A stretch of DNA of 64,000 nt from Escherichia coli (GTDB lineage Bacteria; Pseudomonadota; Gammaproteobacteria; Enterobacterales; Enterobacteriaceae). The stretch lies in assembly GCF_022846255.1 (NCBI RefSeq), contig NZ_AP025682.1; one strand, written 5' to 3'. Position numbers and translations under genes: made by a program. Position 1 is the stretch's first letter. Every line of letters starts with the position of its first letter. Below the pieces are notes generated by a model, which saw only the letters and a list, made by a program, of their open reading frames with translations, was not told where the DNA came from and did not search any database. This document shows positions 3,103 through 19,277 of this stretch, one piece after another.

Positions 3103-4152
3103 TTTGAAAACTGCCTGTACGGCAGTGAACAGCGCCCGCTTTTTTACCGCGTCAGCGCAGCGTTTCTAAGCTGCCTGTACGGCAGTGAACTCCCTGATTC
3201 AGTTGCGCTCCCCGACGAGCTGTTTCTAAGCTGCCTGTACGGCAGTGAACCGTTGGCGTTTCGCGGCAACAGGTTTTTCAATTTTCTAAGCTGCCTGTAC
3301 GGCAGTGAACGTAGTTTTGATTCCAGCGATAACTGCCTATTTATTTCTAAGCTGCCTGTACGGCAGTGAACGTAGTTTTGATTCCAGCGATAACTGCCTA
3401 TTTATTTCTAAGCTGCCTGTACGGCAGTGAACGATCAGGCCCGGCTTTCCCCACACGTTCGTATTTTCTAAGCTGCCTGTACGGCAGTGAACCGCCTGCC
3501 ATTCAACCTGCAAATAGTTTTCGATTTCTAAGCTGCCTGTACGGCAGTGAACGAACTGTGGCACGAGGTTGCAGGCGTAAGACTTTTCTAAGCTGCCTGT
3601 ACGGCAGTGAACGCCATCTTTGAATATAACGCCCCGATTGTGATTTTCTAAGCTGCCTGTACGGCAGTGAACCCCTACCGTTTTAATAAATGGGATTTGC
3701 ATTATTTCTAAGCTGCCTGTACGGCAGTGAACGCTGAGGTGTTTACAATGCGTGCCGTGCTGGTTTTCTAAGCTGCCTGTACGGCAGTGAACTCTGTTTT
3801 TCGTCAGCAGGATTAAACCAGGCATTTCTAAGCTGCCTGTACGGCAGTGAACTCTCATCAATTACGGGTTCGTTGGCTGGATCTTTTCTAAGCTGCCTGT
3901 ATGGCAGTGAACGTCTTCTGCGCATCCGTACCACTCACCAATGATTTCTAAGCTGCCTGTATGGCAGTGAACTTAATCGGTAACGTTGCTCTAATTCCCC
4001 CTCTTTTCTAAGCTGCCTGTATGGCAGTGAACCCAGCGAGAATTGAGGCTGTTTGCCGTGTGCTTTTCTAAGCTGCCTGTATGGCAGTGAACATAAACGC
4101 GCGCAGGTTGTTGAGGTGCTCGAGTTTCTAAGCTGCCTGTATGGCAGTGAAC
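3103..4152 (-). CRISPR. CRISPR array 1, type I-F repeat; 18 repeats / 17 spacers
   Basis: 28-bp unit TTTCTAAGCTGCCTGTACGGCAGTGAAC on the + strand (reverse complement of the I-F consensus GTTCACTGCCGTACAGGCAGCTTAGAAA) at 60-bp period; repeat starts 3103, 3163, 3223, 3283, 3344, 3405, 3465 ... 4125; spacers 32 bp except a duplicated 33-bp spacer; degenerate terminal repeat at 3103-3130 marks the leader-distal end. Confidence 0.97.
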
Positions 4153-4495: not shown

Positions 4496-4583
4496 GGTGA
4501 GGTGTCCGAGTGGCTGAAGGAGCACGCCTGGAAAGTGTGTATACGGCAACGTATCCGGGGTTCGAATCCCCGCCTCACCGCCA
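4496..4583 (+). tRNA. serW: tRNA-Ser (anticodon GGA)
   Basis: 88-nt sequence GGTGAGGTGTCCGAGTGGCTGAAGGAGCACGCCTGGAAAGTGTGTATACGGCAACGTATCCGGGGTTCGAATCCCCGCCTCACCGCCA; long variable arm, CUGGAAA anticodon loop, encoded CCA. Confidence 0.93.
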
Positions 4584-4596
4584 TCTTTAAAGAAGA

Positions 4597-4624
4597 GCTC
4601 GTACGAAAGTACGGGCTTTTTTTT
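4597..4624 (+). terminator. rho-independent terminator downstream of tRNA-Ser
   Basis: hairpin GCTCGTAC-GAAA-GTACGGGC followed by a T8 tract. Confidence 0.55.
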
Positions 4625-4642
4625 CGCATTGATGCACCTTAA

Positions 4643-4677
4643 ATAAAAAACACGTACTTCCTCTTCGAAAGTACGTG
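4643..4677 (-). terminator. terminator candidate for the fimbrial operon (minus strand)
   Basis: perfect 8-bp inverted repeat CACGTACT/AGTACGTG; on the minus strand it is followed by TTTTTTTATTT. Confidence 0.45.
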
Positions 4678-4704
4678 AAAATCAGTGGCTGATTACCATA
4701 CCCA

Positions 4705-5718
4705 CTAGTCGTAGGATACGGCAAATATGGCTTTGCTTTGGACTTCTCCAGGCTGTAGTGCTTCCTCCTTCACGCGGACATATTTCGCGGTAATCGGGAA
4801 GGTGTACTGATTCTCAATGGCCGCCATTTTAGTTAGTTTGTTCATCAGAGTATCACCCAGCTTTAACGGTGTTGTTGCGTTACCATTATAAATCTGGAAC
4901 CCAACCCCCTTAGCACCATTAAGCGATGTGTTTTTCAGAATGGTTCCACTATCATCCCATTCACCGCGCGCAACTTTAAAAGTCACTGGATTAGTCGTGA
5001 CGTTATAAACACTGTCACAATTTAAAACCAGATCTATAGAACCTGATTTCGTGTTATTGGCAGATTGCATCTCACTTACCGTTGTTTCTGGCATTCTTAT
5101 TTCGTAAATCGGTTGCGAAAAACTACAGGTTGTGGGTTTGTGTTTGATGCTAAATTCTATATTCTGAGTGTAAGAAACATCACTATTTAGTCGCCCAGTA
5201 ACCCAACATAAAAGCCATGATATGATATTATTATTGCAAGAGTTATCTGTTAGTATGCTAATAGCGGGGCGCGGGATGGTTATCTTGTCGATATTGGTGG
5301 TTATAGTATGGTCTACTTTACTCGTTGGCCCAACATATTCTGCCTTAAGAGTGAACGGTTTGGTATTTATCACATCCTGAGTGTTATATTCTTTTGGAGA
5401 AGCACCCAAGGAGTCAGTTCCAGTAGAAACAGGAAAACTACTACTCTCAAGGTTAAATTTCATAAAAATTGATTTCCCCGAATCCGACTCTCTAAGTTCA
5501 ACGATATAATCTTTTAACGGTGTTGCATAATACATTTTATCGCTTGCTGCATTACATGTGAACGTATCGACTAAGTTTGTATGAATTACAGCCGTTACCG
5601 TATCTTGTGCCATATCCAGTTCTATCGTTTGGCTTGCTGTTGTATTAGGCCCCAAGGTACATTTAGCCTGCCCCAAAAAAGGCAAAGCCAGTAAAAACAA
5701 AAACCAATATTTCTTCAT
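4705..5718 (-). CDS. fimbrial tip adhesin-like protein (two-domain, FimH-like organisation)
   Basis: ORF 4705..5739; start trimmed to the ATG at 5718 preceded by AAAGGA; signal peptide MKKYWFLFLLALPFLGQA; C-terminal pilin-like end AIFAVSYD; last gene of a chaperone-usher operon. Confidence 0.7.
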   Translation of the reverse strand: MKKYWFLFLLALPFLGQAKCTLGPNTTASQTIELDMAQDTVTAVIHTNLVDTFTCNAASDKMYYATPLKDYIVELRESDSGKSIFMKFNLESSSFPVSTGTDSLGASPKEYNTQDVINTKPFTLKAEYVGPTSKVDHTITTNIDKITIPRPAISILTDNSCNNNIISWLLCWVTGRLNSDVSYTQNIEFSIKHKPTTCSFSQPIYEIRMPETTVSEMQSANNTKSGSIDLVLNCDSVYNVTTNPVTFKVARGEWDDSGTILKNTSLNGAKGVGFQIYNGNATTPLKLGDTLMNKLTKMAAIENQYTFPITAKYVRVKEEALQPGEVQSKAIFAVSYD

Positions 5719-5729
5719 AAACAAATCCT

Positions 5730-8222
5730 TTAACGACAAATATAAACTTTATTCTCATCAATAACGTTATCAAAGGTAATAGTGCAGAATTGTTCCTGCT
5801 GTTTATTAACCGAGACGCGAATCGACGCGGGAACATCATTGGTGCGAATAAATATCCGACTTCCCTGTCCTACTAAGCCCACATTATTGCCACTTTCATC
5901 TTCAACCTCATAACCAAACGGCAACGGAGAGCCATCAGGTCGTTGGGAGATGAAATACCAGGGCTTGCGTTTATCAGTCTCAAACTGCGTCATCACTACC
6001 GCACCACGATAAGGAACGGTGTTTTTACGGTTACCCAGTAGCGCCACATCGCTTTTACTGTCGGCAATATCCAACATCAACGTATTTTCACGATACGGCG
6101 TCAGGTTGTCATAAATAGCGTAGCCTCTGCTATCCGTGGTCAAGTAACGATATCCCTGCACCGCAGCCCCCTCCAGCCCAGGTGCTTTGACAATGGCAAA
6201 CGTATCGGAAAGTCTGGGAGCCAGTGCCACCCCGTCCGACCACGCGACGAAACCGCCTTGAATATTACCGCTAACCTGTTGATATCTTTTCGACTGGCTA
6301 TAGCTGCCACCAATAGTCGCCAATGGCGCACGCCAGGTCAGGTTTCCACCTGCTGTTGTTTCGCTGCCCTGGTGTTGATGGCTCAAGTTTGCCCCGTAGC
6401 TGAACTGATCGCGGCTCCCCGCTACACCGCTGAGGCTGGTATTATTCGACCGATAGCCGTCTTTATCAAAAGTGGTCGAGTTAGAAACAAATAAATCTCG
6501 TCGTTTTTCAGTGATTCCATCGCCCCACGAGAAGGGAATTGAGAAATATAAGTTAATGCGTCTATCTTCGCGGTTATCTTCGTCGTAGGTCTGGCTAACA
6601 GACAAGGTATAACTAAGGCGTTCCCAGGAGTTCGAATAGCTGAGTTGATAATCTTTCCCTGTCCCGCTGCGTTCCCAATAATCCCGCCATTGACCGCTGA
6701 CCGACAGATATCCCCAATTTTCCGGTAATGACTGGTTTATATTTACAGAAAAGCTGTTCTTACGACCAAAATCGTACTGATAATAGTCGGCGATATCATA
6801 AACTGAGTCATCTTCTCGATTATAACTTTTCCTGTTATTTGCCCTCACGTGATCGTTAAAAGTACGATAATCTCGAGAAGAATAACGCCAGGCCGCCAGC
6901 GAAAATTGCGTTCCACTTTGAGAGAGATATTTGTTCCACGCAATCTGATAACTTTGACCATTAAACACATCACCGTTATCTTGTTCACTGTGGGAATGGG
7001 TAAAATCAACAGATACCGCACCAATCGGTGTATTCCATCCCGTGCCGAGAACAAACGATGAGTAATTATCAGACAACTGCGTGCCAGCATAGAGAGTCAG
7101 CAAATTATTAAGGCCATACTGATAGCTTCCCTGAATAAAATCTGACTGATCGCTGGCTCCCTCAATACGGCTACGTCCGACAGCAAATTCATATTTCGAA
7201 ACGCCCGGTTGCAACATATTTGGTACCGATGAATAAGGTACACGATAACGCGACACCGAACCGTCAGCTTCTTTAACGGTAACTTCCAGATCGGCACCAC
7301 CACCTGCAAGTTGCAAATCATCAATGGCGAATGGACCTGGCGGAACTTCTTTCTGGTAAACCACAAAGCCATTTTGTTCGATAGTGACAAGTGCGTTACT
7401 TTGGGCAACACCACGCACCACAGGCGTAAAATTCTGTTTAGAGTTCGGCAACATCTGCATATCGCGCCAAAGGCGTACACCGCGAAAACGCACGGAGTCA
7501 AAAACATCAGAACCGGTATACATTTCACCAGCACGCAATGTGCCAAGAATATGTGGAATTCCGCGCTCCAGATATAACGTGTTACTCTTCCATTTACCGC
7601 TGTTATCGTCACTTTTCGTATAATTGGCATTTGAATGCAACTGCCAGCCCAGCAGATTCAAACCACTATTCAGATTTAAATAGCTACTTTTATTATCTCC
7701 TCCGTGCTTATAATTACTGTAATACTGACTGGCATAATAAGAAGTATATAATGCGTTAATCCCACGATCCCATGCCTCAGGTGGAACATATCCGCGTTCA
7801 TACTCAACAACATAGGCCTGGGGTACACTCAACTTCAGGTTAAAATGCCCAATATCATAGTCAACGCTACCTCCCTGTACTGCATCCCGAAGAGGTACGC
7901 ATTCTACGCCTTTATCAATATTAATTCCTTCAGTGAGGATACCTATTTGCTTTAACTGCTCCCAAGATAAACATGTCGCATCCGGATCATCTTTAATGTC
8001 GACATTATAGTGTCCGCGCCACTGATTATTCAGGTAAACATCCATATCATAGATACCTGGCATCGGCTTATCACTATCAATATGATAGTCAGAAATTTTT
8101 TCCCCATTTAATCCGCCAATCATAAAATGGGTGTCAAATGTTTCATCTTCCGCCCATGCAAGCGACGTTGCCAACACCGACAGGATAGCCAGCGTAATAG
8201 AATTAAGTTTAGACATAATCAA
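5730..8222 (-). CDS. fimbrial outer-membrane usher protein
   Basis: 830-aa ORF with signal peptide; size and position after the chaperone are typical of PapC/FimD-family ushers. Confidence 0.9.
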   Translation of the reverse strand: MIMSKLNSITLAILSVLATSLAWAEDETFDTHFMIGGLNGEKISDYHIDSDKPMPGIYDMDVYLNNQWRGHYNVDIKDDPDATCLSWEQLKQIGILTEGINIDKGVECVPLRDAVQGGSVDYDIGHFNLKLSVPQAYVVEYERGYVPPEAWDRGINALYTSYYASQYYSNYKHGGDNKSSYLNLNSGLNLLGWQLHSNANYTKSDDNSGKWKSNTLYLERGIPHILGTLRAGEMYTGSDVFDSVRFRGVRLWRDMQMLPNSKQNFTPVVRGVAQSNALVTIEQNGFVVYQKEVPPGPFAIDDLQLAGGGADLEVTVKEADGSVSRYRVPYSSVPNMLQPGVSKYEFAVGRSRIEGASDQSDFIQGSYQYGLNNLLTLYAGTQLSDNYSSFVLGTGWNTPIGAVSVDFTHSHSEQDNGDVFNGQSYQIAWNKYLSQSGTQFSLAAWRYSSRDYRTFNDHVRANNRKSYNREDDSVYDIADYYQYDFGRKNSFSVNINQSLPENWGYLSVSGQWRDYWERSGTGKDYQLSYSNSWERLSYTLSVSQTYDEDNREDRRINLYFSIPFSWGDGITEKRRDLFVSNSTTFDKDGYRSNNTSLSGVAGSRDQFSYGANLSHQHQGSETTAGGNLTWRAPLATIGGSYSQSKRYQQVSGNIQGGFVAWSDGVALAPRLSDTFAIVKAPGLEGAAVQGYRYLTTDSRGYAIYDNLTPYRENTLMLDIADSKSDVALLGNRKNTVPYRGAVVMTQFETDKRKPWYFISQRPDGSPLPFGYEVEDESGNNVGLVGQGSRIFIRTNDVPASIRVSVNKQQEQFCTITFDNVIDENKVYICR

Positions 8223-8230
8223 TCCCTGAT

Positions 8231-8911
8231 CTATTTGACGGTTTTTACTTTTTCACTCAAATAGTTCCCATGGTCATCAATCAGCGTAATTGTATATTGA
8301 TTGATGGCTAAGGCTGTGGTGATAGTCTTATCTGACCAGGGGGCTAATAACAACGTTTCGTGATTTATTTTTCCACTTCCCATCAACTCAGGAATAGTTA
8401 TCCAGTTTGCGGAGTTGTTTTTGATATTAATACCACCATTGGCATGCTTAATGCTCAGACGACGAAAACTTTCTTTATCTACGCCAGTAAGTCCCTCTGG
8501 GCGGTAGATAAATTTAATACGATTCTGCATGGCGAATTTTATGCCATTCTTATCTTCTAATTCGGGGCAATTAGGTGGGATGTCTAGCACATTAAGGAAG
8601 AATAGGCTTTCGCGATCTTTTGGTAGTGTATTCGCCAATTTTTTGATTTTGAGTTGTTGCCCTTCCCCCCCTTTTACGTGAGCGACCGGTGGCGTCAACA
8701 CAAACGGAACATGAATTTTTTCTGGGGGTAGACTGGTATCGCCATCATCAATCCATGACTGAACCAGGGCGCTACGATTACCTTCATTCATTAACTGAAC
8801 GGTAATCTCTTTTTTCTTTTCTGGATAAATAACACGAGTGCCGTAGATATAGACACCACTCCACGCAGGCGTGACTATGCCGGCCAGCAAGAAGGCTATT
8901 AATTTTTTCAT
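8231..8911 (-). CDS. fimbrial periplasmic chaperone (PapD/FimC family)
   Basis: 226-aa ORF with signal peptide MKKLIAFLLAGIVTPAWS; size and operon position. Confidence 0.88.
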   Translation of the reverse strand: MKKLIAFLLAGIVTPAWSGVYIYGTRVIYPEKKKEITVQLMNEGNRSALVQSWIDDGDTSLPPEKIHVPFVLTPPVAHVKGGEGQQLKIKKLANTLPKDRESLFFLNVLDIPPNCPELEDKNGIKFAMQNRIKFIYRPEGLTGVDKESFRRLSIKHANGGINIKNNSANWITIPELMGSGKINHETLLLAPWSDKTITTALAINQYTITLIDDHGNYLSEKVKTVK

Positions 8912-8964
8912 TAAACAATCCTTGTTTGAGAAATCGGCGACCGAAGCCGCCGATAAACACGATA

Positions 8965-9513
8965 TTAATCTGTCACGACAGTCATTGTCAGAGCAGAGTT
9001 AACCGGGCCAGCAGTCACCGCATCACCTGATTGCGCGTATTTCGCACTGAAATTTAGTGTATATTCATTAGAGCTGTTTTTTTCTAACTCAATACTTTTA
9101 TCACCGTCAATCTGTTGAGATTGCCCATCTGCACTCTCATAGTAGACAGCAAAACCAGCACCATTTGGGTTTGCCACAGTATTAATGGTGATATCGCTAC
9201 GATTTGCATCAAACTGACTTCTGGAAAACGTAATTCTGGGAGTCTCATCTCCTGTACATTTGACCGTCAGCGGTACAGTTGTTTTATTTGAATAACCATC
9301 ATAAATATAACCAGCGCTCTTACCATCAAATTGATCAGCACCAATATCGTTCATAGCAATAGTAGCCTGGCTATTTCCGATAAATTGACAAGTAGTTCCA
9401 ACCACATTACCGGTAATAACTAACTCACCCTGTTCACTCCCCTCCTCTGCAAAAGCCCCTGCACTCATAAAAAGAGAAGATAATACTGCAACTGCAATAA
9501 TTGAACGTTTCAT
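8965..9513 (-). CDS. fimbrial major subunit (type 1 pilin-like)
   Basis: 182-aa ORF with signal peptide ending AFA, paired Cys residues, first gene of the operon. Confidence 0.85.
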   Translation of the reverse strand: MKRSIIAVAVLSSLFMSAGAFAEEGSEQGELVITGNVVGTTCQFIGNSQATIAMNDIGADQFDGKSAGYIYDGYSNKTTVPLTVKCTGDETPRITFSRSQFDANRSDITINTVANPNGAGFAVYYESADGQSQQIDGDKSIELEKNSSNEYTLNFSAKYAQSGDAVTAGPVNSALTMTVVTD

Positions 9514-9840
9514 AGTCTATTCCTTAACTAATTTATTCCAGGTGATCAAGAGTCTTTTTCCTCTCGGAAATGAATTTCGCAAATTACATTTTCTATCGCA
9601 ATGTAAACAATTTGTTTTTGTGATTTAAATCAAATTATCAAAAGCATATAACAAACAAAAACATCTACAAAAAATATTTTCCTTGTTTACTATTCGGCAT
9701 TATTTGATGTCTTTGCAAGGTAAATTAATACGTATAATTAATTGTGGTTTTTTATTTTAAATAAACATCCGCATACTGATAAAAGTGTAGGGCATTGAAT
9801 TATTTATTCTATTTCCAGCCAGAAATAGGCTTTTCAATAG

Positions 9841-9870
9841 ACAAAAAGACCTGACAGCAAGGCCAGGTCT
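9841..9870 (-). terminator. terminator candidate downstream of cas6f (end of the cas operon)
   Basis: 7-bp stem AGACCTG/CAGGTCT; on the minus strand it is followed by TTTTTGT. Confidence 0.45.
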
Positions 9871-9892
9871 TTTATACATTACAACTTACTAA

Positions 9893-10447
9893 TCAAAACC
9901 AGGGAATAGTGGCGGTTGCGCTTAATCCGTAACTACTAAATTCCCCTTTAACCGGTTCAGTAAGCAAATCACCATGACGGATAAACAGCTTGAACTGCTG
10001 CTGACTCGACAAACTATTCATATTAAGAAAGGGTAAATCGGTCCGCTGTTCAGCCTGCGTCGCCAGTCGCTCAATCGCCTGTTCTTCAGTTAGCCAGCCT
10101 TTTTTCACTGAACGCCTTAACAGACGCTGAGGGTTACTTTTTACCTGTACACGACTTACGACTCGCCAGCCTTTAATTTCAGGTACTAGCGTGACAGGCG
10201 AACATTGGCAGTAATCAGTAAGCCCTTTACGCCACGTAGAGGCTTCAAGTTCTTGCAATGCGGGGGCACTGCCGTGCAAGCGTAAACGCGCTCCCGGCGT
10301 AACATTCACGTCCGGGAAACTCACGCCGATATCACCTTGCCCTCTTGCACCTAATGCCCGATGCAATTTGGCAAATAACGCCGCCATCAACATTTCGCTC
10401 GAAAATTCAGGATCTGGCAGAACGCGGATCTCAAGGTAGTGATCCAT
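9893..10447 (-). CDS. cas6f: Cas6f / Csy4 crRNA endoribonuclease
   Basis: ORF 9893..10489 trimmed to MDHYLEIRVLPDPEF..., the recalled Csy4 N-terminus; AGGAG RBS 7 nt upstream of the ATG at 10447. Confidence 0.92.
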   Translation of the reverse strand: MDHYLEIRVLPDPEFSSEMLMAALFAKLHRALGARGQGDIGVSFPDVNVTPGARLRLHGSAPALQELEASTWRKGLTDYCQCSPVTLVPEIKGWRVVSRVQVKSNPQRLLRRSVKKGWLTEEQAIERLATQAEQRTDLPFLNMNSLSSQQQFKLFIRHGDLLTEPVKGEFSSYGLSATATIPWF

Positions 10448-10457
10448 TGGCAGCTCC

Positions 10458-11459
10458 TTATTCCGATTTCTCACCAAAGACACCGCCACGGATCAGCACA
10501 GCCATCACGTAGCGCTGCTGATCAACGTCTGGTTTCATCCCTTTAGTCACCCAATTGTCCAGTAAGGTATAAAAGTCGAGTTTTTCTTTCGGTTGACGGC
10601 AGGCCACACCGCGACTGGTTACAGAACCGTAAGGTTCCACGGCTATAGCCCCCAATTCATCAACCTTTGGATGCCAGGTATCAATGGTACGTAAAGCATT
10701 GCCAATCTTCTGAGAGTGAATACCGGCAATGCCAGCCACCTGGTATAACACGCGACTTTTACTACTGTTGCTGTCGAGTACCAGCTCCTGCGACGGAAAA
10801 ACTTCTTGCCCGGCACCAAGACGAACCTGCGCTTCAACGGTAAGCATCACCCACTCTTTTGCGCTTAATCCTTGCTCTATAATGGCCGCCAGCTGCGTGA
10901 CCGCTGCCTGTCCCTGGTCAAATTGACGTAAAGAGAAGTCATGGCTGTTAAAAGTCCAGGAAGTGTCGTTAGCAGTAACTTTCACCTGGATCTGCTCAGC
11001 ACCAATGCGGTTGCGCCACAGAAAACGACCATTTGCCAGATTCAGCGCATAGCGAAGCGCCAGCTCTTTAAAGCCATGTTCGCTGATGTAACCTTCAATG
11101 ACCCCGGAAAGCGCCTCCTGGTAAGCCATATCATTACATACTGACGGTGTGGATAAATTACCCAGCACACGCAGCGTAAACACCACCTTTAACGTATCCG
11201 CATCTACCGGAAGCGAAGCCACATCCACCCGTTGCAGGTTAGCTTTTTGGATTTCAGCATCCAGTTTTGTGGAGTCACTGGTAATCGTATTTTTCAAGCG
11301 ATTAGAGATAGTTCCGCGAACCGCTTTCTCCTGAATCTCAATGGGTTGCCATACATTTCCTTGCCAGTTACCTGCGTACATTACCGCGTCAGATGTTGCC
11401 AGTTTGCGCTCAAATGCCAGTACCGATGCCGTTTTTATTACTACAGGAGCCTTTGCCAT
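10458..11459 (-). CDS. cas7f: Cas7f / Csy3 (Csy complex backbone)
   Basis: 333-aa ORF; size and operon position between csy2 and csy4. Confidence 0.9.
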
Positions 11460-11469
11460 AATTATGTCC

Positions 11470-12393
11470 TTATTCTAAATCGTCATATTCATTAAAAGTA
11501 AAATCATCACCAGCTGGCATTGCCGAGCAATAGTAGCCAGTGTCCGTTGTGCGGTAACGCCACATCAGCGGTTGCAAGTCAGTTATGCGATGTAATCCGC
11601 GCCATTCGCCGATGCCATATACCGCTTCGGCAAAAGCAAATGGCGTCACGGTGTCGCGCGCATTTTCAACTTCACCGGGTGCGTAAACAGGAGAAATGCG
11701 TTGGTAGCCACACATTAACGGTACCAGGAAACCAGGCATTGGCTTCGGCTGATATGTCCATTTTGCGCTGTTGTCTTCTGCCGGAGATTCGGCCTGATAT
11801 TTAACGGCAGCAAAATCAAGCCAGGCATCCAGCAATGAGATGTCGGGATGTTGTTGGTGATGTTCAGCCAGCCATTCACTGCGATCGTAAAGCGCATAGC
11901 CAGGCATTAAACGCCAGATGATTTTACGCAGTTGCTTTTCATCTTCAGGCGCATGAAAAAGCTGTGGTTCGCGCATGTCAACAATGCTGCCGCCCGCCAG
12001 TTTGTGGCTCTGGCAGAGCATTTTCAGATGGTCACACAGAGCTTTTCTGCCATATTCACCATTGGTGATTTCCCCTTCACATTCAATGAGCAAAGATACC
12101 GTCAGATGCATACGGCCCTCTTCATTGAACGAAGCGGTTTTACCTTCTCTGGTTAGTGGGTTACGGGTGAGAGCAAACTGAAAATACCGCCCAGAGCTAT
12201 ATGCCTGAATATGTTGTTCATGGCTAACTACCGCGCAACCGTCAAAACTTACGCCAAAATCATCCGCCACTTTGCGAGAAAGCGCATGAACATAGCCGAG
12301 AAAATGGGTCATCGCCGGGAATCCCCAGGTCAACCCGGAGACGGCGTTAGCGTTTTCGATACGTATATGGGGTAACAAGAGCAGATAACTCAT
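11470..12393 (-). CDS. cas5f: Cas5f / Csy2
   Basis: 307-aa ORF; 4-bp overlap with csy1; operon position. Confidence 0.88.
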
Positions 12394-13697
12394 TTCAGCG
12401 CCTCCTGCAAAACAGCTTCCATTTCACGCATCCGTTGAGCGAACAGAGACTGGCTGCGCCATTCTCTTTGCTCGACAGCGCCCACGTCGAAACTGGATTT
12501 TTTCAGGCGATAGTTGAGCCAGCGCGCAAAATCATCGGCCACCGCCCCCTGCCAGTCGTTTTTCTCCCGCTCCAGTTTGAAAACCTCATCGGACAGGCTT
12601 CGCCACGGATCCAGCCAAAGCTGCTGATGGCGAGGTAAATCTTGCGATTGCGCTGACCATCCCTGCCATTTTTCTTGCTGAAAAGCGGATGCCTGCATGA
12701 ACAGCAGATCGATCAACTCATCAATATATTTCGCCCGCGCAGTTCGGATATGAACATTATTTATGTCAACCTTCAACAGGTAAGTCATCCGGGCGATAAT
12801 GCCCGAAGCCGCCCTATTGAAATCGCCGCGTAAGGCAAAAATACTGAGCATGTTTTGTGGTGCGCGATCCAGCGTCGCCCAGGTAGGCGGCATTGACGGC
12901 AACAGCCAGACGCGCCCCCCACGCACACTATTGAGCAATGAAATATTTTGCGGTTTTGTGCCTCCGAAATGCATTTCAGCAAGATTCGGGAAACGAATAT
13001 CTGGCTGTGAGTGCCATTTACCTGCTTTGTGCGCTTCGCGAATGGCTTTCGATTCCTCACTAAAGCGCACGGCGGTTAGCTTTTCATACATCGCCTGCGC
13101 CAGTGAACTGGAAAACAGTGGGCATAAGAGGTGATAACCATCCGCAACAGGGAAATAGATTTGTTTTGCCAGTTTATGGCTGGCAGGCCGTCCAGTTGTC
13201 CATGCCTGGCTAAACCCAGCTACCCACTGCTCCAGTTGCGCTTTATCCTCTGCAAACGTACTTAATGCCTGATAATCACCACGCTTCAGGCTGGCAAGCA
13301 GTGAATCTCCGTTCACATCAGTTTGTAGCAACTTTGCGACGTCAAGTGCAGCGGCGTTACCAATCGCGTCAGTAGCGACATTCGCCAACGATGCCGTGTT
13401 TAAATAGCTTTCGTTAGCGGAGGTTTCCAGATAAAAGCTACTGGCTTTAGAATCACCATGACTGAATTTAGCGCCATGAGTGACTAATTTGATTTGCCCG
13501 GCACGCTTTGCCGCATCCGTTAACCAGTGACGAGGCAGGTAGCGTGCCTCGAGTTCCTGCCGCTCCTGAGCGATGACGCTGGCATCCTCGCCCTGTTCCA
13601 GTCGCTTTGTTGCTTCTTTTTCAAAGGCCTCGACTTTGGGTTGCCTTCGCGAAGCGATATAGTCAGTGATAAATTGTATTAGCGCCGTTTTTTCCAT
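12390..13697 (-). CDS. cas8f: Cas8f / Csy1 (large subunit)
   Basis: 435-aa ORF; AGGAG RBS upstream; operon position. Confidence 0.9.
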   Translation of the reverse strand: MEKTALIQFITDYIASRRQPKVEAFEKEATKRLEQGEDASVIAQERQELEARYLPRHWLTDAAKRAGQIKLVTHGAKFSHGDSKASSFYLETSANESYLNTASLANVATDAIGNAAALDVAKLLQTDVNGDSLLASLKRGDYQALSTFAEDKAQLEQWVAGFSQAWTTGRPASHKLAKQIYFPVADGYHLLCPLFSSSLAQAMYEKLTAVRFSEESKAIREAHKAGKWHSQPDIRFPNLAEMHFGGTKPQNISLLNSVRGGRVWLLPSMPPTWATLDRAPQNMLSIFALRGDFNRAASGIIARMTYLLKVDINNVHIRTARAKYIDELIDLLFMQASAFQQEKWQGWSAQSQDLPRHQQLWLDPWRSLSDEVFKLEREKNDWQGAVADDFARWLNYRLKKSSFDVGAVEQREWRSQSLFAQRMREMEAVLQEALK

Positions 13698-13940
13698 CTC
13701 GGCTCCTTTCGTTAATCCATCAAATTGAAGTTGCTCCCTGACTTCACTGAAAAATCTCCGTAGCCCAACCAGGCTTCAGTACAACGACGCATACAGCAAA
13801 AGGGACAACACCCGTGGTGATAATCATGGATAGCTCACCTAGAGGTATCTACGTTTTAATCTAGTAAAATCCATGCAATAACCAATAGTGATATTACCAT
13901 GCATGAAATATTTGCCACACAATGATTTAAAAACTAACAT

Positions 13941-14016
13941 TCACGCACTGCCGTTGGCAGCTTAGAAATAGAGGTATCTCCGGATACGGACTTGTAAACT
14001 GCCGTACAGGCAGCCC
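13941..14016 (+). repeat. two degenerate CRISPR repeat-like sequences in the cas3-csy1 intergenic gap, inverted relative to both arrays
   Basis: 13946-13968 CACTGCCGT-T-GGCAGCTTAGAAA (loop shortened from 5 to 3 nt); 13998-14014 ACTGCCGTACAGGCAGC (17-nt exact repeat core); consensus orientation is on the + strand, opposite to the arrays. Confidence 0.6.
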
Positions 14017-14024
14017 GCGCCCCT

Positions 14025-17000
14025 TCACGGGGCGCGGTACACACCTAACCAGGGGTGATAACGCCAGTCATCGACCACATCTTCTTCACTGACGGGTACT
14101 CTCACCTCAGCAAACTTTTCCCCAACGCTTGCTATCTCACAACCTTGCTTATCAGCTAAATTCAACAAAACGTGTTGGTAATCCATCACGCCCCAGCAAG
14201 CGACACCGCTGGCGCATCTCACCTCTTCTCGCCTGAAATTCCCTTGCGCTTTACGCTCGTTGTCGCCCGTACGGGAATAGAAACGCGCTTCGCTTTCTTC
14301 ATCATCCATATGCAGAAAAAATACCGCCTCCGGCAAAGGGGAATAACGAAATGGCGTCTGGCGCTGTATCCAGCCGTTCCAGCTTAGCGGTGCACGCCAC
14401 CATTGCGCCGCCACCACATGTTTGCTTTTACTGCTCATCAATTCGGCGGATAAACGACTATGTTCTAGCTCCGCCAGTTTGTTGGCATTATTGGCAGACA
14501 GGATCCGCGGCAAGGCGTTAATCGTCCGGTAGTCCGCGATCGGAATCAGTTCGCAAATATCGTGGCTATTCAGCAAGTGTTCTTTTGTTTCGAAACCAGG
14601 CTTACAAAATGCGGGGGCTTTTTTCTGCAATGATTTGATATTGCTACGCAAAATAACCAGATTCTCACTGGTCGGCACATTTCTACGGTGGCGCTGAATA
14701 CGTCCGGCAAATTGAATTATCGAACGCATGGAGCTTGGTTCGATAATTCCCCAATCCGCATCCCAGTCACGCCCCACTTCTATAACCGATGTCCCCAACA
14801 CCACAAACAGATGGTGCGATTCCGGACGGTTATGTAAGGCATCTGCGATATCTTCGTTGTTCCAGAAATCGAGTTCGTTATGACGGGTAAAAGCGCGGTC
14901 CAGTCGCTTCTCAATATCTGAACGCACCGCCAGCGGGTGTCGGGAGTGGTAAACACAATAATGAATACAAACATTTTCTGGTGAAGGAATGGCAATCAGG
15001 GCTTTGGTCACTGCAACCAGTGGATTGATATTCGCGAAGCGCACCAGGCCCAGCGAAACGGTTTTACCGCTTTCGTGTAGCTGGCGATGCGCCTGATGCA
15101 ACTTCAGCATTTGCGTATGCACCGTCTGGGCCACACTTTCGGTAACATCCTGGATTGCAACTGATGCAGATGAAATCGAAGCAACACGCCCGAAATGCAG
15201 CCGCTCTTTTTCAGCCAGCATTACCGCCCGCCTGGCAACAAATTTTGTATGCGCATCGCGAAAGGCCGCTCCATCGCTAATTTGCGTGGCATCAGCATCG
15301 TTTTCGTCAAACCAGGCACAGCAAATATTGACGGGCCTGCCGTTGGTACCACAAGACGCCTGCCACATTTTACGCCCGGCAAGATAAGCCGCGAACAGCG
15401 CCTGAATCAGGCCTGGCGGAAGCGTCGCCGAAGAGAGTAACACCCGCGTTCCCAGCATCCCGGCCCAGTTCATCAAACGACATACCGCATGAAGATCAGC
15501 AATATCAAAGTCGTCGGGTTCGTCGAGCACTAAATCGCTGGTTAACAGACGCAACATCGCCGGAAGCTGTTTCCCGCCACGCACACCCTCGGTCGCGGAA
15601 ATAAGATGATCAATTGTCGCGACCAGAATCGGCGCGCTCACTAACGCCTTAAGTTTGCTGTCATCCTTCAACCATTTTTCCAGCGCCCCGGTATGCAGGC
15701 TGCCTTCGTACTTAACGAACTGTTGCTCCTCTGCCGGCGACTCTTGCGAGGCACTTCCACAATCATTGTCTATTTTTTCCTGCTGCCAGAGCTGTTTAAC
15801 TGCCGCCGAACCAATTAATACCGCCAGCTCATCCTCACCGAGTCCAAGTCGACTACGCAGAGCATCGCCGGTTTGCAAAGTCAGCGTACGCAATCCCAGC
15901 GCGACGGTAAAACGGCACCCTTCCCGCTCATCGGCAAGCGCATACATAATGCGGGCGTTCGCAAAGGTTTTACCGCACCCCGTCGAGGCCATATTAACGC
16001 CGAAAAATCCCTCCTCCCGGCTTCGTTCACGTAACGCTCGCGCCACATCCGAGGCTTTATCCTGCCAGCGATATTTCGCATCTGTAGCTCGCTGGCTAAA
16101 ACCTTTATGTCGGGCAATTGCCGGAAGAGAAGCCCGTGTGCGCATCAGCTGCCGCCCAAGCAAAAACGCATGATGTGCGACGCCGACCAGGTGCTCGTCC
16201 ACCCGTTGTTTGAGTGCGCCACTTTGCCTATCGCTATTTGCCCAGACGATATAATCCGGCTCCTGCCATTTTTGCTGCGCATCGCTTGAGGAATAGTAAT
16301 GATCGGCAAGCATCAGGCAAAAACGCGCCATATGTGAGGGGAACAACTGTTCCATCAGCCCGTATGTCTTTAAACCGAGCGCGTTACTTGCCCGGCGGGA
16401 AATCTGATGTGCTTTTTCTCGCCAGCTAGCACTCTGAAGCGGTGTTCCAGCCGGAAATTGCCAGACGTGCGCAAAATCCTGTTGTAACCAGTCATCTCTG
16501 CGGTGGTTAACGGCATTCCAGTCAGCATTAAGTTGCCTTTCCAGCCAACTTTCACACCCTTTGCAAGATTGTTCCGGTTGTGGCGAAAGATTCTCCGGAA
16601 TTCGATGATGGGAAAGGATCAGCCAACCTACCGTTTTGGCTAGCGGTTGCAGCGAAGTAAATGGGCTATCTGAAAATTGAGGCGTGTCTTTTAGCAGGCG
16701 TTCCAGAATCGCAGATTCATCATCTGCCGTAAGTTCGCCAAGCTTCGCCAGCCACACATCGTCGGGCCGATCACCGACAAACGCCTGAAAGAGCCGCAGT
16801 GAGATCCATTCATGTCGGTATGGTTGATAACTGCGGGCATTCTTTTGGGTCAGGCTTTGCTGAAAGCTGCGTCCGGATTTTCCAAAATCATGAAATAACC
16901 CGGCGATGGCTGCCAGCAGCGCAATGCTTTCCGCACATTGCCAGCGGTTTTCTTCCTTGTTCACCAGGCTGGTTTGCGTTGTGCGATTTGTGGGAACGCG

Positions 17001-17258
17001 CCCCTGAGCATTAAAACGACGAATATTACCCACAATCCACATCAACTCAATTTGTCCATTCTTCTTTAGCCAGTGACATGCCACTGCGGTATTTCGCCTG
17101 GCAGTTTTGCGCAGTAAACGGCGGAGTGTATTAACGCCTTCCAGAGTAATCACTGTTTGCCATGCGGCATCACCTGTACGTTCAGCAAACTGATCAATAA
17201 TACGGCAGCTTTCCACGCGGGCGTTTTTTGTACAGCGCGAGATAATCAGAACATTCAT
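14025..17258 (-). CDS. cas3: Cas2-Cas3 fusion (Cas3f: N-terminal Cas2, HD nuclease, helicase)
   Basis: 1077-aa ORF; N-terminus MNVLIISRC...FAERTGDAAWQT resembles recalled I-F Cas2/3; HD motif LFHDFGK; 4-bp overlap with cas1. Confidence 0.95.
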   Translation of the reverse strand: MNVLIISRCTKNARVESCRIIDQFAERTGDAAWQTVITLEGVNTLRRLLRKTARRNTAVACHWLKKNGQIELMWIVGNIRRFNAQGRVPTNRTTQTSLVNKEENRWQCAESIALLAAIAGLFHDFGKSGRSFQQSLTQKNARSYQPYRHEWISLRLFQAFVGDRPDDVWLAKLGELTADDESAILERLLKDTPQFSDSPFTSLQPLAKTVGWLILSHHRIPENLSPQPEQSCKGCESWLERQLNADWNAVNHRRDDWLQQDFAHVWQFPAGTPLQSASWREKAHQISRRASNALGLKTYGLMEQLFPSHMARFCLMLADHYYSSSDAQQKWQEPDYIVWANSDRQSGALKQRVDEHLVGVAHHAFLLGRQLMRTRASLPAIARHKGFSQRATDAKYRWQDKASDVARALRERSREEGFFGVNMASTGCGKTFANARIMYALADEREGCRFTVALGLRTLTLQTGDALRSRLGLGEDELAVLIGSAAVKQLWQQEKIDNDCGSASQESPAEEQQFVKYEGSLHTGALEKWLKDDSKLKALVSAPILVATIDHLISATEGVRGGKQLPAMLRLLTSDLVLDEPDDFDIADLHAVCRLMNWAGMLGTRVLLSSATLPPGLIQALFAAYLAGRKMWQASCGTNGRPVNICCAWFDENDADATQISDGAAFRDAHTKFVARRAVMLAEKERLHFGRVASISSASVAIQDVTESVAQTVHTQMLKLHQAHRQLHESGKTVSLGLVRFANINPLVAVTKALIAIPSPENVCIHYCVYHSRHPLAVRSDIEKRLDRAFTRHNELDFWNNEDIADALHNRPESHHLFVVLGTSVIEVGRDWDADWGIIEPSSMRSIIQFAGRIQRHRRNVPTSENLVILRSNIKSLQKKAPAFCKPGFETKEHLLNSHDICELIPIADYRTINALPRILSANNANKLAELEHSRLSAELMSSKSKHVVAAQWWRAPLSWNGWIQRQTPFRYSPLPEAVFFLHMDDEESEARFYSRTGDNERKAQGNFRREEVRCASGVACWGVMDYQHVLLNLADKQGCEIASVGEKFAEVRVPVSEEDVVDDWRYHPWLGVYRAP

Positions 17259-18244
17259 TGATCAGCCTTAGCCAGTGCCTGGGCAGTTTCCTGCAAAGAG
17301 GTGATCATGACATCCAGCGCATCCGTTTGTTGAAAGATATTGATGCAGCGTAGACGAAACTCCTGGGCATCTTCACCTGCCATCGCGGCGATAAATGCTT
17401 GCGGCATCACAAGGGCATCTTTAATCAGATCGGCAAGGTCAAAAACCAGCCCGCCGCGACGTGTTTTACCGTGCATTACTGCTAAACCGTGCGGGATCCC
17501 GGTTACCCACGCCGCCACTGCTGCCAGTCCATAAGCCAGATAATTCCCTTGATCGAGGAAGCGGTTGGCCATATCAATACCACCGCCCCGTTTTGCGCGA
17601 GTGAAATCGCCATACCCCACTGTTTGACTGACCATTTTGTATAACGCTTTAGTCAATTTGGCCTCTACGAGCATAAGCTGCGTATGGTTTTCTGCCGCGT
17701 CTATTTCTTCACGAGTACGATTCAGGAGGGTATGCAGCGCATTAACATCAGGTTGAAATGCGTGTTCACGCTGCATTTTCGAGCTGGACCAGTGCTTATC
17801 GATATGTGTCAGGCGGATTAACTGAAAACGTTTCGCGGCGGCAAGTCGTTTATCTTCAGCAAACCAAAAAGAAACCCACTGCTGGAGATACTCTGTAGGG
17901 CGATATTCACTTTGTGGGCTGAGCCAGGAGACATCAACATCCACTTCATTTGCCGAATACAGCGGCGTGCCATCCGTACCACAAAAGCCCACCATCACCC
18001 CGGCATGAGCAAATTCACGCATCGCCGCCTGAGTAACGGAAGTTCCCATTCCCAACATCAATGCCGTGGTATTCGCAATGGGGATATTCCAGTAGTACGA
18101 CTCTTTACCTTCGCTGGTGACATACTCCACCCGCCCACCATTCACCTGTACCCGGCATTTTTCCAGATAATAAATATTGGCGCGTTTGGAGTGGAGAATG
18201 GTTTTGAGATCGGAAGGCGTGAGGTAATTCGAAGACATAAACAC
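17255..18244 (-). CDS. cas1: Cas1 integrase (type I-F)
   Basis: 329-aa ORF; SDLKTILHSKRANIYYLEKCRVQVNGGRVEYV resembles recalled I-F Cas1. Confidence 0.95.
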   Translation of the reverse strand: MFMSSNYLTPSDLKTILHSKRANIYYLEKCRVQVNGGRVEYVTSEGKESYYWNIPIANTTALMLGMGTSVTQAAMREFAHAGVMVGFCGTDGTPLYSANEVDVDVSWLSPQSEYRPTEYLQQWVSFWFAEDKRLAAAKRFQLIRLTHIDKHWSSSKMQREHAFQPDVNALHTLLNRTREEIDAAENHTQLMLVEAKLTKALYKMVSQTVGYGDFTRAKRGGGIDMANRFLDQGNYLAYGLAAVAAWVTGIPHGLAVMHGKTRRGGLVFDLADLIKDALVMPQAFIAAMAGEDAQEFRLRCINIFQQTDALDVMITSLQETAQALAKADQ

Positions 18245-18409: not shown

Positions 18410-19277
18410 TTGTGAAACTACCTGTACGGCAGTGAACCGCGTAGAGCTGCTGCGCAAACTCGACACTCATTTCTAAGCTGCCTGTACGGCAGTGAACCCT
18501 CGTTCATCAAGGTGCTCAAAGCTTGACATTTTCTAAGCTGCCTGTACGGCAGTGAACGCCAAGAACGCTGTTACCGCTTCCCTGTGCGCTTTCTAAGCTG
18601 TCTGTACGGCAGTGAACCCAGATTGCCGAAAACATCGCCTTTGATGAACTTTCTAAGCTGCCTGTACGGCAGTGAACGGGCGCGGTGTCGTCCAGGATTT
18701 GGAGGCAACTTTCTAAGCTGCCTGTACGGCAGTGAACAACAGGTCGTCCAGCGCATCCCACGGATCCGGTTTCTAAGCTGCCTGTACGGCAGTGAACATC
18801 GCGCACACGCAGTCTTACATTTGCCACCATTTCTAAGCTGCCTGTACGGCAGTGAACGAGTGATTATTATGGCCCAATCGGACGATGACTTTCTAAGCTG
18901 CCTGTACGGCAGTGAACCTCCACCCGTGGTAAGCAGAAAGGGCCGTAACTTTCTAAGCTGCCTGTACGGCAGTGAACTGATCTGTTGCGATACTGACAGT
19001 ATCGTTAGCTTTCTAAGCTGCCTGTACGGCAGTGAACTGTTTTTTTGACGTGTAAACCGGGCGGTTTTTTTTCTAAGCTGCCTGTACGGCAGTGAACATC
19101 TCCGTATTTACTGTCCTCCCTGCTATCCATTTCTAAGCTGCCTGTACGGCAGTGAACTGCCAGTTTCGAAAACGTGCAGCAAATGCAGTTTTCTAAGCTG
19201 CCTGTACGGCAGTGAACTACCTTAATTTGAAATGAACCTTTGCCGCATATTTCTAAGCTGCCTGTACGGCAGTGAAC
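18410..19277 (-). CRISPR. CRISPR array 2, type I-F repeat; 15 repeats / 14 spacers
   Basis: same 28-bp repeat at a strict 60-bp period (starts 18410, 18470 ... 19250); all spacers 32 bp; degenerate terminal repeat at 18410-18437 (cas1-proximal); one variant repeat at 18590-18617. Confidence 0.97.

What the first reader, a model, noticed from the sequence alone, without database searches (positions are those of the whole stretch)
18590..18617. Single stem-disrupting repeat variant in array 2
The repeat at 18590-18617 reads TTTCTAAGCTGTCTGTACGGCAGTGAAC (C to T). In crRNA sense this changes GGCAG to GACAG in the 3' half of the Cas6f hairpin stem, creating a C-A mismatch. It may impair processing of the flanking crRNAs.
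Basis: seen in the sequence. Interest (0 to 1): 0.2.

Follow-up and report, generated by a model that had tools for sequence, protein, structure and literature searches.

The report
One mutated repeat, E. coli CRISPR
One old repeat in an E. coli type I-F CRISPR array has a single-base change that breaks a base pair of the RNA hairpin recognised by the processing enzyme Cas6f; this is ordinary decay at the old end of an array and at most weakens two of its 14 guide RNAs.

Summary
The repeat at 18590-18617 has T instead of C at 18601. It is the only stem-breaking variant among the 33 repeats of the window's two arrays.

The window is the E. coli infA-clpA locus with a complete type I-F CRISPR-Cas system.

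- **Folding:** the hairpin falls from -8.6 to -1.4 kcal/mol.
- **Rfam:** the CRISPR-DR4 score falls from 50.1 to 40.4 bits.

The variant is repeat 12 of 15 counted from the leader, near the old end. The two crRNAs at risk are:
- spacer 11, which matches a Mu-like prophage gene exactly and has the correct GG PAM;
- spacer 12.

The same G17A repeat occurs elsewhere. It is in cas-less orphan arrays of 30 of 5,426 complete E. coli genomes, and at trailer-proximal positions in a Serratia and a Neisseriaceae array. Another stem-breaking variant, A19C, sits in the penultimate repeat of three other E. coli I-F arrays.

I read this as a neutral point mutation in an old repeat. Reduced Cas6f processing is likely but was not measured. 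Interest is low.

The parts
18590..18617 (-). Variant CRISPR repeat R12 (12th of 15 from the leader); crRNA sense GTTCACTGCCGTACAGACAGCTTAGAAA (G17A)
   Evidence: Rfam CRISPR-DR4 40.4 bits against 50.1 for the canonical repeats
18601..18601 (-). The variant base: T on the + strand (consensus C), which is A17 in the crRNA and faces C9 of the stem
   Evidence: script assertion
18410..19277 (-). Array 2, probably CRISPR4.1 in the E. coli nomenclature: 15 repeats and 14 spacers, transcribed right to left; terminal degenerate repeat at 18410-18437
   Evidence: locus nomenclature from PMC3903273
19278..19433 (-). AT-rich leader of array 2, between the clpA terminator (19467-19434) and the first repeat
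   Evidence: terminator; homologous leader next to the orphan arrays in L001/L002. No consensus promoter was found
18618..18649 (-). Spacer 11; its crRNA would carry the variant hairpin as its 3' end and Cas6f binding site. It matches a Mu-like prophage gene (DUF3164) exactly, with a GG PAM
18558..18589 (-). Spacer 12; its crRNA needs cleavage in the variant repeat to free its 5' handle. No protospacer was found
9893..10447 (-). cas6f (csy4), 184 aa from the Met at 10447; the endoribonuclease that recognises the repeat hairpin
   Evidence: Pfam Cas_Csy4 4e-65; PDB Cas6f/Csy4 hits 1e-60 to 1e-48, with the catalytic His and the R-V-Q motif aligned; 98% identical to E. coli Cas6f
10458..18238 (-). 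Rest of the I-F operon: cas7f/csy3 10458-11459, cas5f/csy2 11470-12393, cas8f/csy1 12390-13697, cas2-3 14025-17258, cas1 17255-18238
   Evidence: the same order and lengths are annotated in E. coli loci
3103..4152 (-). Array 1 of the same system (probably CRISPR4.2): 18 repeats, none stem-breaking; the five leader-proximal repeats carry the loop variant G11A

Best explanation
This is a spontaneous, essentially neutral point mutation in an old, trailer-proximal repeat of the clpA-side array of an E. coli type I-F CRISPR-Cas locus. The change is C to T on the + strand, which is G17A in the crRNA.

Shown: the change converts the C9-G17 pair, the fourth of five stem pairs, into a C·A mismatch and removes most of the hairpin's predicted stability.

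Inferred: Cas6f binds and cuts this repeat less well. The crRNA of spacer 11 takes its 3' hairpin and Cas6f cap from this repeat. The crRNA of spacer 12 has its 5' handle released by cleavage in this repeat. Both would be under-produced, or left as a fused two-spacer precursor. The other 12 guides of the array would be unaffected.

Inferred: the mutation persists as a singleton for two reasons. Only the leader-proximal repeat is copied when spacers are added. Selection on old spacers is weak.
For: - **Sequence and strand:**
- **Folding:** canonical repeat -8.6 kcal/mol with stem-pair probabilities of at least 0.985. In the variant the best mismatch-containing hairpin is -1.4 kcal/mol, the MFE is -2.2 in a different fold, and stem-pair probabilities are at most 0.15.
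- **Rfam:** the CRISPR-DR4 score drops by 9.7 bits.
- **Cas6f requirements:** it needs the stem's helical geometry (review PMC5965381) and stays bound to the hairpin to nucleate the complex (PMC3497052).
- **System state:** the system is complete and Cas6f is intact. The E. coli I-F system is constitutively active in strain LF82 (PMC3506596).
- **Position:** repeat 12 of 15 from the leader.
- **Same allele elsewhere, also near the trailer:** repeat 9 of 11 in a Serratia array and 6 of 7 in a Neisseriaceae array.
- **Another stem-breaking variant:** A19C sits in the penultimate repeat of array 2 in three other E. coli strains.
- **Contrast:** in array 1 a loop variant (G11A) that arose at the leader end was copied into a block of five repeats. 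The G17A repeat is a singleton, as expected for a mutation in an internal repeat.
Against: - No RNA data exist, so the effect on processing is prediction only.
- The basal three stem pairs and the bases next to the cleavage site are unchanged, and about 15% of the variant ensemble still forms them.
- Cas6f binds its substrate at about 50 pM (my recollection of Sternberg 2012; the paper is not in the library). It may therefore clamp a weakened stem shut, and a protonated A+·C wobble could fit the helix.
- The primary specificity papers could not be read.
- The base call could not be checked in a second assembly.
Confidence: 0.7

Rival explanations
1. The variant is real but functionally silent. 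Cas6f still binds and cleaves the G17A repeat at close to the normal rate in vivo, because its affinity is very high and the C·A position can be accommodated, for example as an A+·C wobble. All 14 crRNAs would then be made.
For: - The bases next to the cleavage site and the three basal pairs are intact.
- About 15% of the free RNA ensemble keeps those pairs, which costs only about 1.2 kcal/mol as a folding pre-equilibrium.
- The variant still passes the Rfam gathering score (40.4 against a threshold of 35).
- The same allele occurs inside otherwise uniform arrays in Serratia and Neisseriaceae.
Against: - Predicted loss of about 7 kcal/mol, and the canonical hairpin is no longer the MFE structure.
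- Cas6f recognition is described as highly sensitive to helical geometry (PMC5965381).
- Every occurrence found is either trailer-proximal or in a cas-less orphan array, where function is not required. The variant was never seen propagated at the leader end of an array in a locus that has cas genes.
Confidence: 0.22
2. The T at 18601 is a sequencing or assembly error and the repeat is canonical.
For: It is a single base in a highly repetitive region. No second assembly with the same spacers was found to confirm it.
Against: - It is a substitution, not a homopolymer indel.
- The identical allele exists in 30 independent complete E. coli genomes and in 2 other genera, so it is a biologically occurring variant.
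- Internal variant repeats are common in E. coli I-F arrays (8 of 125).
Confidence: 0.05
3. The mutation was selected because it disables spacer 11. The host would then tolerate a Mu-like prophage carrying the matching protospacer, which would be escape from CRISPR autoimmunity through a mutated flanking repeat.
For: - Spacer 11 matches a Mu-like prophage gene 32 of 32 in two E. coli genomes, with a correct GG PAM.
- It is exactly the spacer whose crRNA depends on the variant hairpin.
- Degenerate repeats next to self-targeting spacers have been reported (Stern et al. 2010; my recollection, the paper is not held).
Against: - No protospacer for any of the 31 spacers lies in the 64-kb window, and the rest of the genome is not available.
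- The prophage is rare (2 of 5,426 genomes).
- The same allele arises in unrelated arrays with other spacers, which fits random decay.
Confidence: 0.03

Closest known systems
E. coli CRISPR-III locus (arrays CRISPR4.1 and CRISPR4.2 with the cas-F operon between infA and clpA; Almendros et al. 2012, PMC3506596; Almendros et al. 2014, PMC3903273)
   Same: Same chromosomal site, same gene order (cas1, cas2-3, csy1-3, cas6f), same 28-nt repeat with a 60-nt period, same GG PAM. Cas6f is 98% identical.
   Different: - The spacers next to the variant repeat (spacers 11 and 12) are shared with none of 5,426 complete genomes; no genome aligned to array 2 beyond its repeats.
- The terminal repeat of array 2 differs from the six loci inspected.
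- A 5.3-kb fimbrial operon lies between tRNA-Ser and cas6f.
- The G17A repeat sits at position 12.
Pseudomonas aeruginosa Csy4 (Cas6f) and its repeat hairpin (PDB 2XLI, 2XLJ/2XLK, 4AL5)
   Same: The protein is homologous (E about 1e-48), with the catalytic His and the R-V-Q recognition motif aligned. The stem is the same 5 bp, CUGCC/GGCAG, with a 5-nt loop and cleavage after G20 (cleavage site from established knowledge).
   Different: The loop is GUACA rather than GUAUA, and the 3' handle is CUUAGAAA rather than CUAAGAAA. The repeat in question has A at position 17, giving a C·A mismatch that is absent from the canonical repeat.
Degenerate trailer-end repeats of CRISPR arrays (general phenomenon, e.g. 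review PMC3497052)
   Same: The variant is near the old end (12 of 15). Parallel cases are all trailer-proximal: A19C in the penultimate repeat of three E. coli arrays, and G17A at 9 of 11 in Serratia and 6 of 7 in Neisseriaceae.
   Different: It is not the terminal repeat; two canonical repeats lie beyond it. The true terminal repeat (18410-18437) keeps the hairpin through a G·U wobble.
Cas-less orphan CRISPR4.1-2 arrays of E. coli
   Same: The 28-nt G17A repeat is identical, at the homologous site beside the same leader and clpA, in 30 of 5,426 genomes.
   Different: In the two orphan loci read (L001, L002) the variant is the leader-proximal repeat of a 3-repeat remnant, also appears in the terminal repeat, and no Cas6f gene is present. 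In the window it is an internal repeat of an array next to intact cas genes.

Membership tests
Type I-F CRISPR-Cas system | Signature genes: cas1, the cas2-cas3 fusion, csy1/cas8f, csy2/cas5f, csy3/cas7f and csy4/cas6f in one operon | tested here: met
   Pfam hits for all six, including Cas3_I-F_Cas2 (9e-36), Csy1 (4e-125), Csy2 (2e-102), Csy3 (8e-145) and Csy4 (4e-65)
Type I-F CRISPR-Cas system | 28-nt partly palindromic repeat of the CRISPR-4 / Rfam CRISPR-DR4 type with about 32-nt spacers | tested here: met
   14 repeats of array 2 pass the CRISPR-DR4 gathering score; spacers are 32 nt, with two of 33 nt in array 1
Type I-F CRISPR-Cas system | GG PAM at the leader-proximal end of protospacers | tested here: met
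   Met for the one spacer with a known target: spacer 11's protospacer in E. coli A35 is followed by GG on the leader-proximal side. PAM rule from PMC3506596
Cas6f (Csy4) substrate hairpin | 5-bp stem C6-G20, U7-A19, G8-C18, C9-G17, C10-G16 closing a 5-nt loop | tested here: not met
   Position 17 is A, giving C9·A17. The canonical hairpin is not the MFE structure and its pairs have probability of at most 0.15. The other 32 repeats of the window do meet it
Cas6f (Csy4) substrate hairpin | Sequence determinants at the base of the stem and the cleavage site (A19, G20, then C21) | tested here: met
   The variant repeat keeps ...CAG|CUUAGAAA unchanged. The role of these bases is my recollection of Haurwitz 2010, which is not held in the library
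Cas6f (Csy4) substrate hairpin | Binding and cleavage by Cas6f after G20 | not testable with these tools
   Needs an in vitro cleavage assay or small-RNA-seq
Cas6f endoribonuclease | Full-length protein with the catalytic His and the major-groove recognition residues | tested here: met
   184 aa aligned end to end with PDB Cas6f/Csy4 chains. The His of ...KLHRAL... and the R-V-Q motif align with the corresponding P. aeruginosa Csy4 residues (His29 and R102-V103-Q104 by my numbering of that protein); 98% identical to annotated E. coli Cas6f

The most novel reading that the evidence does not exclude
The G17A change is not drift but a selected 'off switch' for one guide. By crippling the hairpin that caps the crRNA of spacer 11, the strain silences a guide against a Mu-like transposable phage with a perfect 32/32 match and correct PAM. 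It could then carry that prophage without CRISPR autoimmunity while keeping the rest of the system intact.
Probability: 0.03. Interest if true: 0.35.

Novelty: already known. Interest (0 to 1): 0.1.

Why it matters
It matters little on its own. At most the strain loses two old guides of the 31 spacers (30 distinct) in its two arrays.

It has minor value as a natural test substrate. A single C·A mismatch at the fourth stem pair leaves intact every base I recall Cas6f reading directly, so it would show how much of Cas6f's selectivity comes from helix geometry alone. The allele recurs in the G17A hits inspected: two of the 30 cas-less E. coli orphan arrays, Serratia and Neisseriaceae. It is therefore also a usable marker when typing E. 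coli CRISPR4 arrays.

Tried and rejected
- **Folding in context:** I folded the variant within a 148-nt stretch (R11-S11-R12-S12-R13). The global MFE pairs distant repeats with each other, an artefact of thermodynamic folding of multi-repeat RNA, so I used the isolated-repeat results only.
- **Primary Cas6f specificity papers:** Sternberg 2012, Haurwitz 2010 and Haurwitz 2012 are not held. Searches for hairpin-mutant data found nothing on position 17. Stern 2010 on self-targeting is not held either.
- **An independent copy of the same array, to check the base call:** none in 5,426 complete E. coli genomes and none in metagenome contigs.
- **Apparent spacer similarity with the orphan arrays:** megablast extended 19 nt into spacer 12 at 87-89% identity. 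On inspection this is an 8-mer plus scattered matches with gaps, next to a different spacer, so I treat it as a chance extension.
- **Protospacers for array 2:** none in the phage collection; no self-targets in the window.
- **Promoter in the leader:** no consensus sigma-70 promoter found, so the transcription start is not located.

Full report
**What is there.** The window carries the E. coli infA-clpA region; the clpA/clpS stretch is up to 99.0% identical (best match) to complete E. coli genomes. In window order it contains:
- infA;
- array 1 (3103-4152, 18 repeats);
- tRNA-Ser(GGA) at 4496-4583;
- a chaperone-usher fimbrial operon (4705-9513, minus strand);
- a complete type I-F cas operon on the minus strand: cas6f 9893-10447, cas7f, cas5f, cas8f, cas2-3, and cas1 ending at 18238;
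- array 2 (18410-19277, 15 repeats);
- an AT-rich leader;
- the clpA terminator and clpA.

This is the locus described in E. coli as CRISPR-III, with arrays CRISPR4.1 and CRISPR4.2 (PMC3903273; PMC3506596).

**The observation.** The repeat at 18590-18617 reads TTTCTAAGCTGTCTGTACGGCAGTGAAC, with T at 18601 where the other 13 full repeats of array 2 have C. Across both arrays, 33 repeats in all, it is the only variant that breaks a stem pair. The others are:
- five repeats of array 1 with a loop change (G11A);
- two terminal repeats that are degenerate mainly in the 3' handle. Both still fold: array 2's terminal repeat carries C18U, giving a G·U wobble, and array 1's keeps its stem unchanged.

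**Strand and anatomy.** Four lines of evidence place the crRNA on the minus strand with the leader on the right.
- All Rfam CRISPR-DR4 matches are on the minus strand.
- The degenerate terminal repeats are at the left ends of both arrays.
- The block of five G11A repeats in array 1 abuts the right end, as expected if new repeats are copied from the leader-proximal one.
- Spacer 11's protospacer has GG on its right side, which is where the E. coli I-F PAM lies relative to the leader (PMC3506596).

In crRNA sense the variant is GTTCACTGCCGTACAGACAGCTTAGAAA, that is G17A.

**Predicted effect on the RNA.**

| Measure | Canonical repeat | Variant repeat |
|---|---|---|
| Hairpin energy | -8.6 kcal/mol (5-bp stem) | -1.4 kcal/mol (best hairpin keeping the register) |
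| MFE structure | the canonical hairpin | a different fold, -2.2 kcal/mol |
| Stem-pair probabilities | at least 0.985 | at most 0.15 |
| Energy against shuffled sequences | z = -2.25 | z = +0.39 |
| Rfam CRISPR-DR4 score | 50.1 bits | 40.4 bits |

Cas6f itself is intact. It is 184 aa, 98% identical to annotated E. coli Cas6f, and aligns end to end with solved Csy4 structures with the catalytic His and the R-V-Q recognition motif conserved.

**Which guides are affected (inference from the known I-F pathway).** A mature I-F crRNA has three parts: the last 8 nt of the upstream repeat, the spacer, and the first 20 nt (the hairpin) of the downstream repeat. Cas6f stays bound to that hairpin (PMC3497052; PMC5965381). 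Counting from the leader, the variant is R12.
- The crRNA of spacer 11 (18618-18649) would end in the mismatched hairpin.
- The crRNA of spacer 12 (18558-18589) needs cleavage in R12 to free its 5' handle.
- If Cas6f fails at R12, the product is a fused unit of about 120 nt.
- The other 12 guides are untouched.

Spacer 11 is a genuine immune memory. It matches, 32 of 32, a DUF3164 gene in a Mu-like prophage (DDE transposase, gp16, Mor) in two E. coli genomes, with the correct PAM.

**How ordinary is it?**
- In six other E. coli I-F loci (137 repeats), 8 of 125 non-terminal repeats deviate from the consensus. One of these variants, A19C plus C21T, also breaks the stem (U7·C19). It sits in the penultimate repeat of array 2 in three strains.
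- The exact G17A 28-mer occurs once in each of 30 of 5,426 complete E. coli genomes. In the two I inspected it is the leader-proximal repeat of a three-repeat orphan array with no cas genes, and the same base is also changed in that array's terminal repeat.
- Among about 100,000 species-representative genomes, the allele (allowing the usual loop and handle variants) occurs in two arrays: Serratia sp. AKBS12, repeat 9 of 11, and a Neisseriaceae bacterium, repeat 6 of 7. Both are trailer-proximal.

So this is a rare but recurrent allele, found where function is not required or only weakly selected. This is the well-known pattern of repeat decay toward the old end of arrays.

**Verdict on mechanism.** Most likely (about 0.7) this is a neutral point mutation that reduces Cas6f processing at one old repeat. 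It may instead be tolerated by Cas6f (about 0.2). The recognition bases A19 and G20 and the three basal pairs are unchanged, roughly 15% of the free RNA still forms those pairs, and Cas6f's affinity is very high (my recollection of Sternberg 2012, not retrievable here). A base-calling error is unlikely (about 0.05) but could not be excluded, because no second assembly shares these spacers. A selected inactivation of a self-targeting spacer is possible only in principle (about 0.03). No target lies in the window and the rest of the genome is unavailable.

**Novelty and score.** This is a known kind of feature in a known system at a known locus, with no new mechanism. Interest is 0.1.

Noticed in passing
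window 3885-4152: The five leader-proximal repeats of array 1 all carry the same loop change: TGTATGG on the + strand, G11A in the crRNA, so the loop is AUACA instead of GUACA. The hairpin is still predicted (-7.8 kcal/mol). A contiguous block at the leader end fits a mutation in the first repeat that was copied at four later spacer acquisitions. The array therefore stayed active after the mutation, and the variant is tolerated by the adaptation machinery.
   Followed up: partly
window 3311-3343 and 3372-3404: The same 33-nt spacer occurs twice in tandem in array 1, giving two 61-nt periods among 60-nt ones. This is a repeat-spacer unit duplication, or the same spacer acquired twice.
   Followed up: no
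window 4580-9890: A yehD-like chaperone-usher fimbrial operon (two fimbrial subunits, a chaperone and an usher) lies between tRNA-Ser and cas6f. In the six other E. coli I-F loci inspected, cas6f follows the tRNA directly. Similar operons (about 94% identity, at least 80% coverage) occur in 35 genomes; the listed hits lie next to a tRNA (tRNA-Ser in most), on plasmids of about 100-120 kb and on chromosomes. This suggests a mobile module inserted at the tRNA.
   Followed up: partly
L001 3881-4028 and L002 3881-4028 (E. coli 05-3629 and M18): These cas-less strains keep a three-repeat orphan array beside the clpA-side leader. Its first repeat is the identical G17A variant, its terminal repeat has the same base change, and the middle repeat is canonical. 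That T-C-T pattern is not explained by simple leader-end copying. 30 of 5,426 genomes carry the exact variant 28-mer.
   Followed up: partly
L001 3640-3700 and 3820-3880: The 3' end of tRNA-Ser plus its terminator is duplicated about 180 bp apart in the cas-less strains, like an att-site scar, at the place where the window has the fimbrial operon and the cas-F genes.
   Followed up: no
L004 18222, L006 18222, L008 18222: Three other E. coli strains share a penultimate repeat in the clpA-side array with A19C plus C21T (GGCCGT). This breaks the U7-A19 pair and changes a base that I recall Cas6f reading directly. It is another conserved, presumably dead, old repeat.
   Followed up: partly
L004 14892-17009; L007 11219-12142; L009 13776-17009: Several E. 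coli I-F loci are decaying: a truncated cas3f with csy1 and csy2 missing (SZQ1), an internal stop in csy2 (MS8345), and an internal stop in cas3f (GPEC1186). The window's operon has intact ORFs for all six genes.
   Followed up: no
L010 6517-7447 (Neisseriaceae bacterium ESL0693): Two adjacent I-F arrays have different loops (GCATA and GTATA). In the second array the five newest repeats all have C18U (a G·U wobble in the stem), while the two oldest are GACAG (G17A) and canonical GGCAG. A wobble variant has therefore become the propagated form in that array.
   Followed up: no
window 18410-18437: The terminal repeat of array 2 (crRNA sense GTTCACTGCCGTACAGGTAGTTTCACAA) differs from the terminal repeat shared by the six other E. 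coli loci (…GGCAGTATTCACA). Spacers 11 and 12 match no complete E. coli genome as spacers, and no genome aligned to array 2 beyond its repeats. This array seems to belong to a spacer lineage not represented among 5,426 complete genomes.
   Followed up: partly
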